The position numbers were made by a program. A stretch of DNA of 64,000 nt, taken from NCBI RefSeq assembly GCF_041248615.1, contig NZ_CP158426.1; one strand, 5' to 3'. Of this stretch, positions 34,901 to 37,900 are shown in pieces. Position 1 is the first letter of the stretch. Every line of letters starts with the position of its first letter. The DNA comes from Escherichia coli. GTDB taxonomy: Bacteria; Pseudomonadota; Gammaproteobacteria; Enterobacterales; Enterobacteriaceae.

Positions 34901-37900
34901 ACGGTATCGGTGATTCAGGCAAATCAGGGAAAAATTAATGTGATGCATAGCTATCATTCGCTGGGGCGGGTATTACGCGATGCTGGTTTTCGCTTTCCGC
35001 CGCTGATTGAGAGCATTCCTGAAGGTGGGCGAATGGATGTGAGCGCAGAGCGTTTACCTGAACTGGATGCCGATTTTGTTTTTGCAACCTGGCGCGGTGA
35101 CACCGGTGGTAAACCTCAGGATGAGCTGGCAGCAATGGAAAAAGTCATGCCGGGATGGTGTCAGTTTCTGACGGCCTGTCGTTCCGGGCGCTATGTGCTG
35201 ATTTCTCGTGAAGAGGCGATTTCTAACTCCTTTGCATCTCTGGGGCTGATGGCTGCGCAGATACAATCACAAATTGCGGGACGACCTCTACCGGAGGCTA
35301 AATGATCCAGAAAGACAAAACGCGGGTTGATATTTATGGTGAGCGTTTTCGCACTCGCGCGAGTCAGTTAACGCCTGGGTTAAGAACTGTCGCAAGCTAC
35401 ATTAATGAGCATCGTGAAGTGGTACTCGAGCAAACGGCGATGGAAATTGCGGCCACGTTGAACACTTCCGATGCCACAGTTATCAGGGCTATACAGGCTC
35501 TGGGGTTTGCCGGGCTGCGTGATCTGAAACGCACACTGGAACAGTGGCTTGGTCCAGCCCTTAGTTCCAGCGAAAAGATGTCTACGACGGTGAGTAACTT
35601 GACGAGCGATGTTAACACCGCAATCGACTTTGTTCTTGAAGGGCATTTGTATACTTGTAATGTCCTGTCAGAGCCTGAAAACCGCCACGCGCTTGCGCAA
35701 GCTGTAGCGTTGTTGGTGCAGGCACGGCAAGTCGCTATTTTTGGCATTGGCGCTTCGGGTATCCTGGCGGACTATACCGCACGACTATTCAACCGCATAG
35801 GTTTGCCTGCCACGGCACTAAACCGTACGGGTATTGGCCTTGCCGAGCAACTGATCGCGCTTCAACGTGGCGATGTTCTGATCATGATGGCGCAAAAATC
35901 TGCGCACCGGGAAGGGCTGACAACGCTTCGTGAGGCGAGGCGGCTGGGGATCCCTGTTATTTTGCTGACAAACGCGCTGGATTCACGTTTTAGCAAAGAC
36001 GCCAGTATCGTGATTCATGTTCCGCGCGGGGATGAAAAGGGGAAAACGCCACTACATGGTACGGTATTGTTGTGCCTGGAAATGATTGTTTGGTCGGTGG
36101 CTTCCGCGATGCCGCAGCGTGCGGTTAAAACCATTAAGCGAATTAACGATTTCCATCGGGGTTTGAAAACGGGAAGAAAGAATGGCTAATCTGACCTGAG
36201 GCCGGTAGCAACACCGGCCTCTTTTCAGGAATGTTAAATCCCCGGTTGCAGAATACGGATATTCATCTCCAGCACGTCGCCTTTTACGGCTTCGCTGTAC
36301 GCCTTCATGTGCGGGGTTTGCAGATGCGCTTCAAGATGCGCGATGCTTTCCCACTGCTCAATCATCACGATAGAATCCGGTGCCATAGACTGGAAACTCA
36401 CGCCAGCAGCGCAATCCACCATTGGCGCATAGCCGTGGCAACCTTCTTCTTTCAGTACGGTTGGAACGATTTTAGCAAACTGATCCAATACTGCCTGACG
36501 GTGATGTTGACCAGGACGAGTACGGATTTCTGCGATTACGGTAAGCATGGTTAACTCCTTCTAAAGCCTGAGCTCTAGTTAACCAAAAATTTCCACAAGA
36601 TGCTTGCGATATTCTTCAGTATAGCGGGGAACATCAGGCATTTTTATCACGTCATTAGCGATAAATGTCGGCAGCGGTTCCATGCCAAGGAATTGGTTTG
36701 CTTTATGGAACGGCAGATACACACCGTCAACGCCAACGCCGTGGAAGAACTGATCTTTTTCGGTGAAGGCTTCCATTGGTGCGTTCCAGGTCAGAGAAAG
36801 CATATATTTTTTGCCCTGTACCAGGCCGCCGGAACCGTATTTTTTCGACGGATCTTTGCGGGTACGACCATCGCTGGCATACAGCGTCCCGTGACCTTCG
36901 GTGAATACATCATCAATGTATTTTTTCACTGTCCACGGCGCGCCCATCCACCAGCCTGGCATCTGCCAAATCACCACATCAGCCCAGAGAAAGTTTTGTA
37001 CTTCCGCTTTGACATCGTAGTCGCTGTCGGCGCGAACGATGCGGACATCATGCCCGAGGTCGCGCAGTGTGCCATCCGCGACTTCGGTCAGGGTGTCGTT
37101 CAGTTGACCATTGGAGTGGGCGAATTTTTTCGCGCCGTTGATAATCAGGATGTTGCTCATTTTTTAACCTCAAGGTGAGACGTTTGTCGACTATAGTACG
37201 TCACAGAGCGGTACGGTGAAATTAGCAAAATGTGCAAAGTCTTTTGCTAATTTAGCAAAAGTCTGATCTTGCTCTGACTCACCGATGCAGGATAAATATT
37301 TTCTGAAAATGACAATACTGATAGCAATTTCTCATCATTCCAACTAGCACAGGGTTAATTTACAACGTTGGTGTGGACTTTCTGCGAGTTGATAATTGTG
37401 GTGATGCTGCCAACTTACTGATTTAGTGTATGATGGTGTTTTTGAGGTGCTCCAGTGGCTTCTGTTTCTATCAGCTGTCCCTCCTGTTCAGCTACTGACG
37501 GGGTGGTGCGTAACGGCAAAAGCACTGCCGGACATCAGCGCTATCTCTGCTCTCACTGCCGTAAAACATGGCAACTGCAGTTCACTTACACCGCTTCTCA
37601 ACCCGGTACGCACCAGAAAATCATTGATATGGCCATGAATGGCGTTGGATGCCGGGCAACCGCCCGCATTATGGGCGTTGGCCTCAACACGATTTTCCGC
37701 CATTTAAAAAACTCAGGCCGCAGTCGGTAACCTCGCGCATACAGCCGGGCAGTGACGTCATCGTCTGCGCGGAAATGGACGAACAGTGGGGATACGTCGG
37801 GGCTAAATCGCGCCAGCGCTGGCTGTTTTACGCGTATGACAGGCTCCGGAAGACGGTTGTTGCGCACGTATTCGGTGAACGCACTATGGCGACGCTGGGG

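What the first reader, a model, noticed from the sequence alone, without database searches (positions are those of the whole stretch)
35302..36189. RpiR/SIS-domain regulator translationally coupled to the siderophore-type ABC transporter
Iron-uptake operons are usually controlled by Fur, with AraC-type, two-component or FecIR-type local regulators. Here the last gene of the transporter operon, overlapping the binding-protein stop by ATGA, is an RpiR/MurR-family protein with a SIS (phosphosugar-binding) domain. This suggests the transported or sensed ligand may carry a sugar or sugar-phosphate moiety, or that the operon is wired to carbohydrate status; the substrate may not be a classical siderophore. 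This is the least expected element in the window.
Basis: inference. Interest (0 to 1): 0.55.

Follow-up and report, generated by a model that had tools for sequence, protein, structure and literature searches.

The report
Known FitR repressor of fit locus
The gene is real and is an RpiR/SIS-type regulator fused onto an iron-uptake operon, but it is the already published E. coli repressor FitR, so the finding is ordinary apart from its still unknown signal molecule.

Summary
A 295-aa ORF at 35302-36189 (+) overlaps the stop of the upstream binding-protein gene by ATGA and carries Pfam HTH_6 plus SIS domains. It is not new. The window is E. coli chromosome, and the island between parE and ygiN is the published fit locus (fitA / fitBCDER). 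All primers from Ouyang & Isaacson 2008 (PMC2593036) map onto it. That paper already noted the HTH plus sugar-isomerase architecture. It showed FitR auto-represses both divergent fit promoters, binds the fitA-fitB intergenic DNA, and acts independently of Fur and iron.

This analysis adds three things:
- The fitR link to TonB-dependent uptake genes is conserved in 79 of 80 species loci, in two architectures.
- Invariant TGTAGTAGTAAA / ACTACTACA blocks overlap the inferred -35 boxes next to Fur-box-like blocks. They use the same half-sites as RccR, FitR's closest solved relative, and are candidate FitR operators.
- Three of the four serines that hold the phosphate in RccR, NanR and MurR are replaced in FitR (A197, K199, H202), and the replacing motif QKSxHREG is invariant across 14 orthologues.

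The FitR ligand and the Fit substrate remain unknown.

The parts
28997..31138 (-). fitA, a TonB-dependent siderophore receptor (713 aa), transcribed divergently from the ABC operon
   Evidence: ORF. NCBIfam TIGR01783 scores 372.8 bits (cut-off 223.5) and no equivalog is reached. The paper's fitA qPCR primers match exactly at 30318 and 30375. The closest solved receptors are the enantio-pyochelin receptor (3qlb), CntO, FoxA and FhuA.
31139..31511 (.). fitA-fitB intergenic control region holding the bidirectional promoter. It contains the fragment that FitR shifted in EMSA.
   Evidence: The paper's 'fit promoter' primers match exactly at 31160 and 31495 (PMC2593036). An alignment of 16 genera shows four invariant blocks against a 50% mean column identity.
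31237..31255 (.). Fur-box-like block GTAATTGAGAATCATTCAA, overlapping the inferred -10 (TTGAAT, 31255-31250) of the fitA promoter
   Evidence: 12 of 19 matches to the Fur consensus. It is invariant or nearly so in all 16 type-A and 12 type-B aligned sequences. Fur control is documented in PMC2593036 and PMC7157518. The promoter assignment is inference.
31267..31278 (.). Candidate FitR operator half-site O1, TGTAGTAGTAAA. Its complement supplies the inferred -35 (TTTACT) of the fitA promoter.
   Evidence: An exact copy is present in all 49 type-A loci, in the window, and in all 20 type-B loci. TGTAGT/ACTACA is the experimentally defined half-site of RccR, FitR's closest solved relative (PMC5489143). 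The assignment to FitR is inferred.
31298..31303 (.). Candidate partner half-site O2, GCTACA, which gives TGTAGT-N25-GCTACA together with O1
   Evidence: CTACA lies at +31 or +32 from O1 in 32 of 49 type-A loci plus the window, and in 19 of 20 type-B loci.
31429..31440 (+). TTGACTACTACA: the inferred -35 (TTGACT) of the fitBCDER promoter, overlapped by candidate FitR site O3 (ACTACTACA, an inverted copy of O1). The inferred -10, CAAACT, lies at 31452-31457.
   Evidence: Invariant in all 16 aligned genera. CTACA lies at +164 to +193 from O1 in all 49 type-A loci and the window, and at +180 to +192 in 19 of 20 type-B loci (L058: +98). Of the 138 exact 9-mers in the 80 loci, 119 lie in these intergenic regions.
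31465..31483 (.). Second Fur-box-like block GAGAATGAGTTTTATTTTT, just downstream of the inferred fitB -10
   Evidence: 13 of 19 matches to the Fur consensus. It is a conserved block in the 16-genus alignment.
31512..32321 (+). fitB, the ABC transporter ATPase
   Evidence: ORF. NCBIfam best match is FecE-like at 284 bits, below its cut-off. The fitB qPCR primers match exactly.
32318..33301 (+). fitC, a FecCD-family permease
   Evidence: The fitC primers match with 1-2 mismatches.
33298..34347 (+). fitD, a FecCD-family permease (the RefSeq start is equivalent to 33310)
   Evidence: The fitD primers match exactly.
34358..35305 (+). fitE, the periplasmic substrate-binding protein (RefSeq start; the longest ORF begins at 34295)
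   Evidence: The mature part matches PDB 3be5/3be6 ('putative iron compound-binding protein') over its full length, E 2.2e-195. 3BE6 is named Ec-FitE in PMC10553834. The fitE primers match with 1 mismatch.
35293..35305 (+). The fitE/fitR junction: GGAGG Shine-Dalgarno (35293-35297) and the ATGA start/stop overlap (35302-35305)
   Evidence: Read directly from the sequence. The junction is conserved in orthologues. Translational coupling itself is inferred.
35302..36189 (+). fitR, the MurR/RpiR-family auto-repressor (295 aa)
   Evidence: Pfam HTH_6 plus SIS. The fitR qPCR primers match exactly at 35405 and 35469, and the cloning primers at 35302 (3 mismatches) and 36169/36172. Function is from PMC2593036.
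35341..35544 (+). The HTH_6 DNA-binding domain (residues 14-81)
   Evidence: The recognition region S56-D57-A58-T59-V60-x-R62 is invariant in orthologues, and S56, R62 and G68 are invariant across 87 family members.
35713..36042 (+). The SIS domain (residues 138-247), the putative effector-binding domain
   Evidence: The structural matches are the SIS domains of RccR, NanR, MurR and 3sho.
35887..35916 (+). Non-canonical pocket loop M196-A-Q-K-S-A-H-R-E-G205, which replaces the Ser-x-Ser-Gly-x-Ser/Thr phosphate-binding loop
   Evidence: It aligns to RccR I182-SQSGRS-188 and to NanR VSSSGST. The phosphate-binding serines of RccR are S139, S183, S185 and S188 (PMC11014249). The loop is invariant in 14 orthologues of 68-89% identity.
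36198..36225 (+). GC-rich hairpin GAGGCCGGT-AGCAAC-ACCGGCCTC followed by TTTT, between the convergent genes fitR and ygiN. It is the likely operon terminator.
   Evidence: Read from the sequence. The consensus scan missed it because the T-run has only 4 T. This is inference.

Best explanation
This is fitR, the last gene of the E. coli fitBCDER operon. It encodes a MurR/RpiR-family (HTH_6 + SIS) repressor of the fit iron-uptake locus.

Shown by others:
- FitR represses both divergent promoters (fitA and fitBCDER) about 2- to 5-fold, including its own synthesis.
- FitR binds the 347-bp fitA-fitB intergenic fragment.
- It acts additively with, and independently of, Fur and iron.

Shown here:
- The window carries exactly that locus.
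- fitR is tightly joined to fitE: an ATGA overlap with a GGAGG 4 nt upstream.
- FitR orthologues (66-98% identity) are almost always next to a FitA-like TonB receptor, with or without the ABC genes.

Inferred here:
- FitR recognises TGTAGT/ACTACA half-sites. One pair (31267-31303) covers the -35 of the fitA promoter. An inverted copy (31432-31440) covers the -35 of the fitB promoter. Fur boxes sit over or just after the -10 regions, so each promoter is closed by two independent locks.
- RpiR regulators such as RccR and MurR are tetramers, so a FitR tetramer could bridge the two sites, which lie about 165 bp apart.
- Repression is probably relieved when a small molecule binds the SIS pocket. 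That pocket is strongly conserved and basic (R161, R165, K199, H202, R203) but lacks the serine cage for phosphate. The most likely inducer is therefore the still unidentified Fit substrate or a cytoplasmic product of it, which would make the system substrate-inducible on top of iron control. A canonical phosphosugar is less likely.
For: Identity with the published locus:
- All 18 primers of PMC2593036 map in the expected order and orientation, 12 of them exactly.
- The gene order and RefSeq annotation agree.
- FitE equals PDB 3be5/3be6.

Function: repression, complementation, EMSA and the fur/fitR double mutant are in PMC2593036. ChIP data place c3771-c3775 in the direct Fur regulon (PMC7157518).

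Family: Pfam; an AF2 model with pLDDT 92.7; Foldseek top hits RccR-KDPG, NanR-ManNAc-6P and MurR.

Linkage across 80 loci:
- 49 have fitA plus fitBCDE.
- 9 have fit ABC genes, with the receptor off the locus, absent or divergent.
- 20 have a receptor only.
- 1 has a receptor remnant.

Operator:
- Invariant blocks appear in 16 genera and in the receptor-only architecture.
- Exact TGTAGTAGTA is present in 70 of 70 intergenic regions (49 type-A loci, the window, 20 type-B loci).
- 119 of 138 exact 9-mers lie inside these regions.
- RccR binds the same TGTAGT/ACTACA half-sites with variable linkers (PMC5489143).

Pocket: alignments to RccR and NanR; the phosphate cage S139/S183/S185/S188 (PMC11014249); the invariant motif MAQKSAHREG.
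Against: - No footprint or mutagenesis assigns the TGTAGT blocks to FitR. They overlap -35-like hexamers, so part of their conservation could be promoter function.
- O1 is not itself palindromic, and the O2 partner is missing in 17 of 49 type-A loci.
- The simple promoter scan found no consensus promoter in the intergenic region, and no transcription start is known.
- The reported repression is modest (2-5 fold), and no inducer has ever been shown. FitR might work without a ligand.
- The basic pocket could still bind a phosphate through K199, H202 and R203.
- The 2006 fit paper could not be read here.
Confidence: 0.85

Rival explanations
1. FitR senses a phosphosugar or the cell's carbohydrate status through a classical SIS pocket. 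On this view fit expression is wired to carbon metabolism, or the Fit substrate carries a sugar or sugar-phosphate moiety.
For: - The SIS fold is real.
- Every structurally characterised RpiR regulator found here binds a phosphorylated sugar or sugar acid: RccR-KDPG, NanR-ManNAc-6P, MurR-MurNAc-6P.
- The first phosphate-binding serine (S152, in FGIGASG) and the R165 equivalent of RccR R152 are kept.
- Sugar genes lie nearby in some lineages: a LacY-like transporter island after fitR in Enterobacter and lacZY next to the receptor in Serratia.
Against: - Three of the four conserved phosphate-cage Ser/Thr are replaced by A, K and H, and the replacing motif is invariant across orthologues.
- FitR reaches no NCBIfam equivalog cut-off for HexR, MurR or AlsR.
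- The neighbouring sugar genes differ between lineages and are absent in Escherichia, Kosakonia, Citrobacter and Klebsiella.
- The only conserved partners are TonB receptors and siderophore-type ABC genes.
Confidence: 0.15
2. FitR has no small-molecule effector. Because it is translated from the same mRNA it represses, it simply acts as a negative-feedback damper that caps fit expression once Fur repression is lifted.
For: - Repression is only about 2-5 fold and is seen under both iron-rich and iron-poor conditions. No inducer was reported (PMC2593036).
- fitR is the last gene of the operon, with a conserved overlap to fitE.
- The canonical ligand cage is degenerate.
Against: The pocket loop QKSxHREG, together with R161, R165 and the PRG...PLHG segment, is invariant across orthologues that are otherwise only 68-89% identical. 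Such conservation is hard to explain for a pocket with no function. In type-B loci the regulator has its own promoter, away from the receptor mRNA.
Confidence: 0.2
3. The adjacency is accidental. On this view an unrelated RpiR gene landed beside an iron transporter and regulates something else.
For: More distant homologues (51% identity or less) sit in unrelated contexts: an RND efflux operon for P0124, and Rrf2 and chemotaxis genes for P0129.
Against: - Published genetics and EMSA show direct control of fit.
- The linkage to FitA-like receptors is conserved in 79 of 80 species loci and in two architectures.
- The start/stop overlap is conserved.
Confidence: 0.01

Closest known systems
FitR of E. 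coli i484 (Ouyang & Isaacson 2008, PMC2593036; fit system, Infect Immun 2006)
   Same: It is the same gene. The locus order is fitA / fitBCDER, the start codon is the same, and all published primers map. The HTH plus sugar-isomerase domain architecture was already noted in that paper. So were auto-repression, binding to the intergenic DNA, and independence from Fur.
   Different: There are only allelic differences, for example 3 mismatches under the fitR2 forward primer. The paper left the operator and the ligand undefined. Candidates for the operator, and the degenerate phosphate cage, are added here.
RccR (Pseudomonas; PDB 8k3b/8ju9), an RpiR-family KDPG sensor
   Same: It is the best sequence and fold match among solved structures (E 2e-15; Foldseek E 4e-16). 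It has the same HTH_6 + SIS layout and is a tetrameric repressor. Its operator half-sites TGTAGT/ACTACA, with linkers of variable length (PMC5489143), are the same hexamers that are invariant in the fit control region.
   Different: Identity is only 22-23%. RccR controls central carbon metabolism. Its phosphate cage S139/S183/S185/S188 is intact, whereas FitR keeps only the first serine. The FitR linker between half-sites would be about 25 nt, against 3 or 16 nt in RccR.
HexR, MurR, NanR (V. vulnificus) and AlsR/RpiR: the classical phosphosugar-responsive members
   Same: The domain architecture and fold are shared. They use repressor logic with an effector-binding SIS domain.
   Different: FitR scores far below every equivalog cut-off: HexR 52 against 296, MurR 28 against 408, AlsR 66 against 400 bits. 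Its regulon is metal uptake rather than sugar catabolism. The pocket loop is non-canonical.
The RpiR-family SIS domain of Sphaerobacter thermophilus (PDB 3sho), together with the large uncharacterised 'AY-G-x-x-Y-x-E' subgroup
   Same: These proteins share with FitR the loss of the Ser-x-Ser-Gly loop: 3sho has VSVWRYLRD, and dozens of representatives have LAYGRxYxE. They also share the PRG...LHG segment.
   Different: None has a known ligand or function. Those examined are not linked to TonB/ABC genes.
Substrate-responsive local regulators of siderophore uptake (FecIR, and AraC-type PchR, AlcR, Btr and YbtA). This comparison rests on general knowledge.
   Same: They are a second, system-specific layer of control on top of Fur for a TonB receptor and ABC uptake locus.
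   Different: Those regulators are activators or sigma/anti-sigma pairs from other protein families. FitR is a repressor of the RpiR family, and its signal is unknown.

Membership tests
MurR/RpiR family of transcription regulators | N-terminal HTH_6 (RpiR-type) DNA-binding domain | tested here: met
   Pfam PF01418, residues 14-81, E 3.6e-10. It aligns to the YbbH HTH domain 2o3f.
MurR/RpiR family of transcription regulators | C-terminal SIS domain with the flavodoxin-like alpha/beta fold | tested here: met
   Pfam PF01380, residues 138-247, E 1.3e-13. The AF2 model has pLDDT 92.7. TM-scores normalised to the target are 0.8 or higher for the SIS domains of 3sho and MurR (7en5).
MurR/RpiR family of transcription regulators | Four conserved Ser/Thr that hold the effector's phosphate (RccR S139, S183, S185, S188; stated to be conserved in NanR and MurR) | tested here: not met
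   FitR has S152 at the first position but A197, K199 and H202 at the other three (alignments; residue roles from PMC11014249). The motif MAQKSAHREG is invariant in 14 orthologues. This bears on the ligand class, not on family membership by fold.
MurR/RpiR family of transcription regulators | Binds (pseudo)palindromic operators in the promoters it controls | tested here: inconclusive
   Invariant TGTAGT...ACTACA elements lie in the fit control region. They match the half-sites of RccR. Binding to the whole fragment is published, but no site-level test exists.
MurR/RpiR family of transcription regulators | DNA binding modulated by a small-molecule effector | not testable with these tools
   No effector is reported in PMC2593036, and this needs biochemistry.
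Specific equivalogs HexR, MurR, AlsR and PRK11337 (NCBIfam) | Whole-protein score above the curated cut-off | tested here: not met
   The best scores are 79.7 against 920, 72.8 against 378, 66.5 against 400, 52.2 against 296 and 27.9 against 408 bits.
E. coli fit iron-uptake locus (fitA, fitBCDE, fitR) | Six genes: a divergent receptor gene, then ATPase, two permeases, binding protein and regulator in one operon | tested here: met
   ORFs, family assignments and RefSeq annotation.
E. coli fit iron-uptake locus (fitA, fitBCDE, fitR) | Sequence identity with the published genes | tested here: met
   All 18 published primers map in the right genes and orientations, 12 with 0 mismatches. FitE matches PDB 3be5/3be6 at E 2.2e-195.
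E. coli fit iron-uptake locus (fitA, fitBCDE, fitR) | Fur control of the divergent promoters | tested here: inconclusive
   Only 12/19 and 13/19 matches to the Fur box, which is not significant alone because 15 sites score exactly 13/19 in the window. Both blocks are, however, phylogenetically invariant. Fur dependence is shown in the literature.

The most novel reading that the evidence does not exclude
FitR-type proteins could be a distinct RpiR clade, restricted mainly to Enterobacterales. Its SIS pocket has exchanged the phosphate-binding serine cage for an invariant basic loop (QKSxHREG). On this reading it senses a non-phosphosugar signal: the orphan Fit metallophore or its intracellular breakdown product. 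This would make fit a substrate-inducible uptake system, and FitR would serve as bait for identifying the long-unknown Fit substrate. The conserved composite element (Fur box plus TGTAGTAGTAAA) would then define a small FitR regulon of TonB receptors across genera.
Probability: 0.3. Interest if true: 0.5.

Novelty: already known. Interest (0 to 1): 0.15.

Why it matters
As it stands this is a re-discovery. An RpiR/SIS regulator in an iron-uptake operon was reported and tested in 2008, so the finding should not be treated as new.

Two questions remain open: what the Fit system imports, and what FitR senses.

The fit island is common. It is present in 1870 of 5426 complete E. coli genomes. It is Fur-regulated in uropathogenic E. 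coli. It is induced by iron limitation in carbapenem-resistant Klebsiella.

Two additions here make those questions more tractable. The candidate operator gives defined sites to mutate. The non-canonical pocket warns against assuming a phosphosugar ligand.

Tried and rejected
- The 2006 fit paper (PMC1698097) is not held. Statements on the substrate therefore rest on PMC5907654 ('substrate unknown; Ent is not the substrate').
- A literature search for RpiR-type regulators of TonB receptors or siderophore uptake found nothing relevant beyond FitR.
- Contexts of distant homologues (42-51% identity) were examined for a hint to the ligand. One contig was too short. The other two showed unrelated neighbours (RND efflux; Rrf2 and chemotaxis genes). 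The TonB linkage is therefore a property of the FitR clade only.
- I considered whether neighbouring sugar genes support a sugar ligand. Enterobacter has an AraC regulator plus a LacY-like island, and Serratia has lacZY. I rejected this because the genes are lineage-specific and absent from most genera.
- The extra genes between fitE and fitR in L037 and L039 are a PepSY_TM protein and two PBP_like_2 proteins. These are compatible with iron-siderophore handling and give no clue to a sugar.
- The consensus promoter/terminator scan found no sigma-70 site in the intergenic region and missed the fitR terminator hairpin. The promoter elements reported here are therefore inferred from conservation only.
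- Fur-box scoring alone is weak, at 12-13 of 19 matches.
- Both receptor types (FitA and the type-B receptor) reach no NCBIfam equivalog. They are closest to FoxA, FhuA and CntO, so the substrate class cannot be named.
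Full report
**1. The observation**

ORF 35302-36189 (+) encodes 295 aa. The upstream ORF ends with TGA at 35303-35305, so the two genes share ATGA. A GGAGG sequence sits 4 nt before the ATG. Pfam finds HTH_6 (residues 14-81, E 3.6e-10) and SIS (residues 138-247, E 1.3e-13). An AlphaFold2 model built on 87 homologues is confident (mean pLDDT 92.7). Its best PDB neighbours are the RpiR-family regulators RccR, NanR (V. vulnificus and S. pneumoniae) and MurR, and the RpiR SIS domain 3sho.

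**2. What the locus is**

The flanking genes (cpdA, yqiA, parE on one side; ygiN, mdaB, qseC, qseB, ygiW on the other) show that the window is E. coli chromosome.

Between parE and ygiN lies a 7.2-kb island:
- a TonB-dependent siderophore receptor (28997-31138, minus strand);
- divergently, an ATPase, two FecCD-type permeases, a substrate-binding protein and the regulator.

A megablast of 28900-36300 finds at least 80% of the query in 1870 of 5426 complete E. coli genomes. The others match only the flanks.

This is the published fit locus. Ouyang & Isaacson 2008 (PMC2593036) describe fitA, fitB-E and fitR. All 18 of their primers map onto the window in the expected genes and orientations, 12 of them without mismatch. 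These include the 'fit promoter' pair at 31160 and 31495 and the fitR qPCR pair at 35405 and 35469. The mature part of FitE matches PDB 3be5/3be6 over its full length (E 2.2e-195), an entry cited elsewhere as Ec-FitE.

**3. What is already known about the gene**

[quoted passage not shown] It then reports:
- Over-expression represses fitB-lacZ 3.2-fold. A fitR knockout expresses 4.9-fold more than the over-expressing strain (211 against 43 units; the wild type gives 139). Complementation restores repression, and fitA behaves the same way.
- Purified FitR shifts the 347-bp intergenic fragment, and unlabelled fragment competes.

ChIP-based work in strain CFT073 lists the Fit genes (c3771-c3775) in the direct Fur regulon (PMC7157518). 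In 2018 the substrate was still described as unknown, with enterobactin excluded (PMC5907654). The 2008 paper states that the exact FitR and Fur sites were not determined. No ligand was reported there, and a later literature search found no further work on FitR.

**4. Is the linkage to uptake genes conserved?**

A scan of one genome per species (GTDB) with an alignment of FitR orthologues gave 274 confirmed relatives. The best 80 loci (66-98% identity) were kept. tblastn with the window's proteins sorted them as follows:

| Architecture | Loci | Taxa or comment |
|---|---|---|
| Full fitA / fitBCDE-fitR | 49 | Escherichia, Silvania, Enterobacter, Huaxiibacter, Phytobacter, Kosakonia, Citrobacter, Klebsiella, Raoultella, Kluyvera, some Erwinia and Pantoea |
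| fit ABC genes, receptor off the locus, absent or divergent | 9 | Tatumella, Shimwellia, Pantoea sp. A4, and loci cut at an edge |
| 'Type B': FitR-like gene facing a receptor only 36-39% identical to FitA, no ABC genes | 20 | Pantoea, Serratia, Erwinia; one on a P. agglomerans plasmid |
| Control element plus the C-terminal remnant of a receptor | 1 | Erwinia typographi |
| Contig too short to judge | 1 | Rahnella |

The fitE-fitR junction is a 4-nt overlap in 34 of 57 loci and a -1 to +15 nt spacing in 20 others. Homologues of 51% identity or less sit in unrelated contexts. The linkage is thus a conserved property of the FitR clade and not a chance fusion.

**5. Control region**

An alignment of the fitA-fitB intergenic region from 16 genera has a mean column identity of 50% but four invariant blocks:
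- TGTAATTGAGAATCATTCAA (31236-31255), which is Fur-box-like (12/19);
- TGTAGTAGTAAA (31267-31278);
- TTGACTACTACA (31429-31440);
- GAGAATGAG(T/A)TTTATTTTT (31465-31483), which is Fur-box-like (13/19).

Exact TGTAGTAGTA occurs in all 49 type-A loci, the window and all 20 type-B loci. A CTACA partner lies at +31 or +32 in 32 of 49 type-A loci plus the window, and in 19 of 20 type-B loci. A further CTACA lies at +164 to +193 in every type-A locus and at +180 to +192 in 19 of 20 type-B loci. Of 138 exact 9-mers in 1.5 Mb of loci, 119 lie in these intergenic regions. The same Fur-box plus TGTAGTAGTAAA composite precedes the type-B receptors, although those receptors share under 40% identity with FitA.

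TGTAGT/ACTACA is the experimentally defined half-site of RccR, which binds it with 3-nt or 16-nt linkers (PMC5489143). RccR is FitR's closest solved relative. I therefore assign these blocks to FitR as an inference.

By spacing, TTGACT (31429-31434) followed 17 nt later by CAAACT would be the fitB promoter. On the other strand, TTTACT (31278-31273) followed 17 nt later by TTGAAT would be the fitA promoter. Each -35 is then covered by a FitR site, and each -10 or +1 region by a Fur-like box. That arrangement fits the published independence of the two repressors. RccR and MurR are tetramers, so bridging of the two sites about 165 bp apart is possible but untested.

**6. The SIS pocket**

In RccR the KDPG phosphate is held by S139, S183, S185 and S188. 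The authors state that four conserved Ser/Thr do the same in NanR and MurR (PMC11014249). The HMMER alignments place FitR residues against these positions as follows:

| RccR | FitR |
|---|---|
| S139 | S152 |
| S183 | A197 |
| S185 | K199 |
| S188 | H202 |

NanR has VSSSGST at the same loop. The FitR loop M-A-Q-K-S-A-H-R-E-G is invariant in 14 orthologues that are otherwise 68-89% identical, as are R161, R165 and V240-P-R-G243 ... P250-L-H252. More distant relatives carry a third version (LAYGRxYxE), as does the uncharacterised 3sho (VSVWRYLRD).

FitR also reaches no NCBIfam equivalog cut-off. By fold and domains it is a member of the family. It lacks the feature that justifies calling the SIS domain 'phosphosugar-binding'. 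A conserved, basic pocket suggests an anionic ligand, but its nature cannot be deduced here.

**7. Neighbours as clues**

FitA and the type-B receptor belong to the TonB-dependent siderophore receptor subfamily. Both are nearest to FoxA, FhuA, CntO and the enantio-pyochelin receptor, and neither reaches an equivalog. After its own PDB entry, FitE is nearest to YfiY and FhuD-type hydroxamate binders.

Two species have a PepSY_TM membrane protein and two PBP_like_2 proteins inserted between fitE and fitR. Sugar genes near fitR (Enterobacter) or near the receptor (Serratia) are lineage-specific. Nothing conserved points to a carbohydrate.

**8. Verdict**

The family, the regulator role and the non-accidental linkage are right. 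The novelty and the sugar-ligand inference are not.
- The feature is already known.
- The most likely mechanism is a Fur-independent, operon-encoded repressor that occupies TGTAGT/ACTACA sites over both -35 boxes. It is probably released by the Fit substrate or a derivative binding a non-canonical SIS pocket. The first half is published. The site and ligand parts are my inferences.
- Interest is low. The residual value is the unidentified ligand and substrate, for which the candidate operator and pocket residues give concrete experiments.

Noticed in passing
window 37400-38167: A complete IS1 copy (768 bp) lies between mdaB and qseC. It has an exact left inverted repeat at 37400 and insA/insB ORFs at 37455-37730 and 37649-38152. 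A strain that matches the fit island at 100% identity has an intact ygiZ at this position, so ygiZ appears disrupted or replaced in the window.
   Followed up: partly
L037:6926-9992 and the same region of L039: In Erwinia sp. JUb26 and Pantoea coffeiphila the fit operon carries three extra same-strand genes between fitE and fitR. They are a PepSY_TM membrane protein (379 aa, Pfam E 1.2e-54) and two PstS-family/PBP_like_2 binding proteins.
   Followed up: partly
L035, L047, L048, L050-L052, L054, L056-L059, L061, L065, L066, L068-L070, L074, L077, L079 (around 7400-10900 in most of these loci): A second, receptor-only architecture. A FitR-like gene (66-73% identity) is transcribed divergently from a TonB receptor only 35-39% identical to FitA, with no ABC genes. 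The same Fur-box plus TGTAGTAGTAAA element is kept. One copy lies on a 548-kb Pantoea agglomerans plasmid (L074).
   Followed up: yes
L072:9500-9990: Erwinia typographi keeps the fitR-like gene and the composite control element (9686-9730). The receptor gene is reduced to its C-terminal remnant, which abuts the promoter. This looks like a decayed module.
   Followed up: partly
window 35359-35376: The published forward primer for the complementing construct pBAD-fitR1 anneals 57 nt inside the annotated ORF, at codon 20. The paper also reports a 28-kDa product for a 295-residue protein. The functional N-terminus used in that work may differ from the annotated one.
   Followed up: no
L005:10963-16317 (similar in other Enterobacter loci): Enterobacter species carry a roughly 5.5-kb insert between fitR and ygiN. 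It encodes an AraC-type regulator, a 629-aa protein without a family, a LacY-like oligosaccharide MFS transporter and a 395-aa protein without a family. This is probably a separate sugar-utilisation islet at the same integration hotspot.
   Followed up: partly
87 RpiR-family representatives (alignment A3; motif table): A large set of RpiR-family proteins lacks the Ser-x-Ser-Gly-x-Ser/Thr loop. These proteins share LAYGRxYxE and PRG...LHG motifs instead, as in PDB 3sho. This may be an uncharacterised ligand class within the family.
   Followed up: partly
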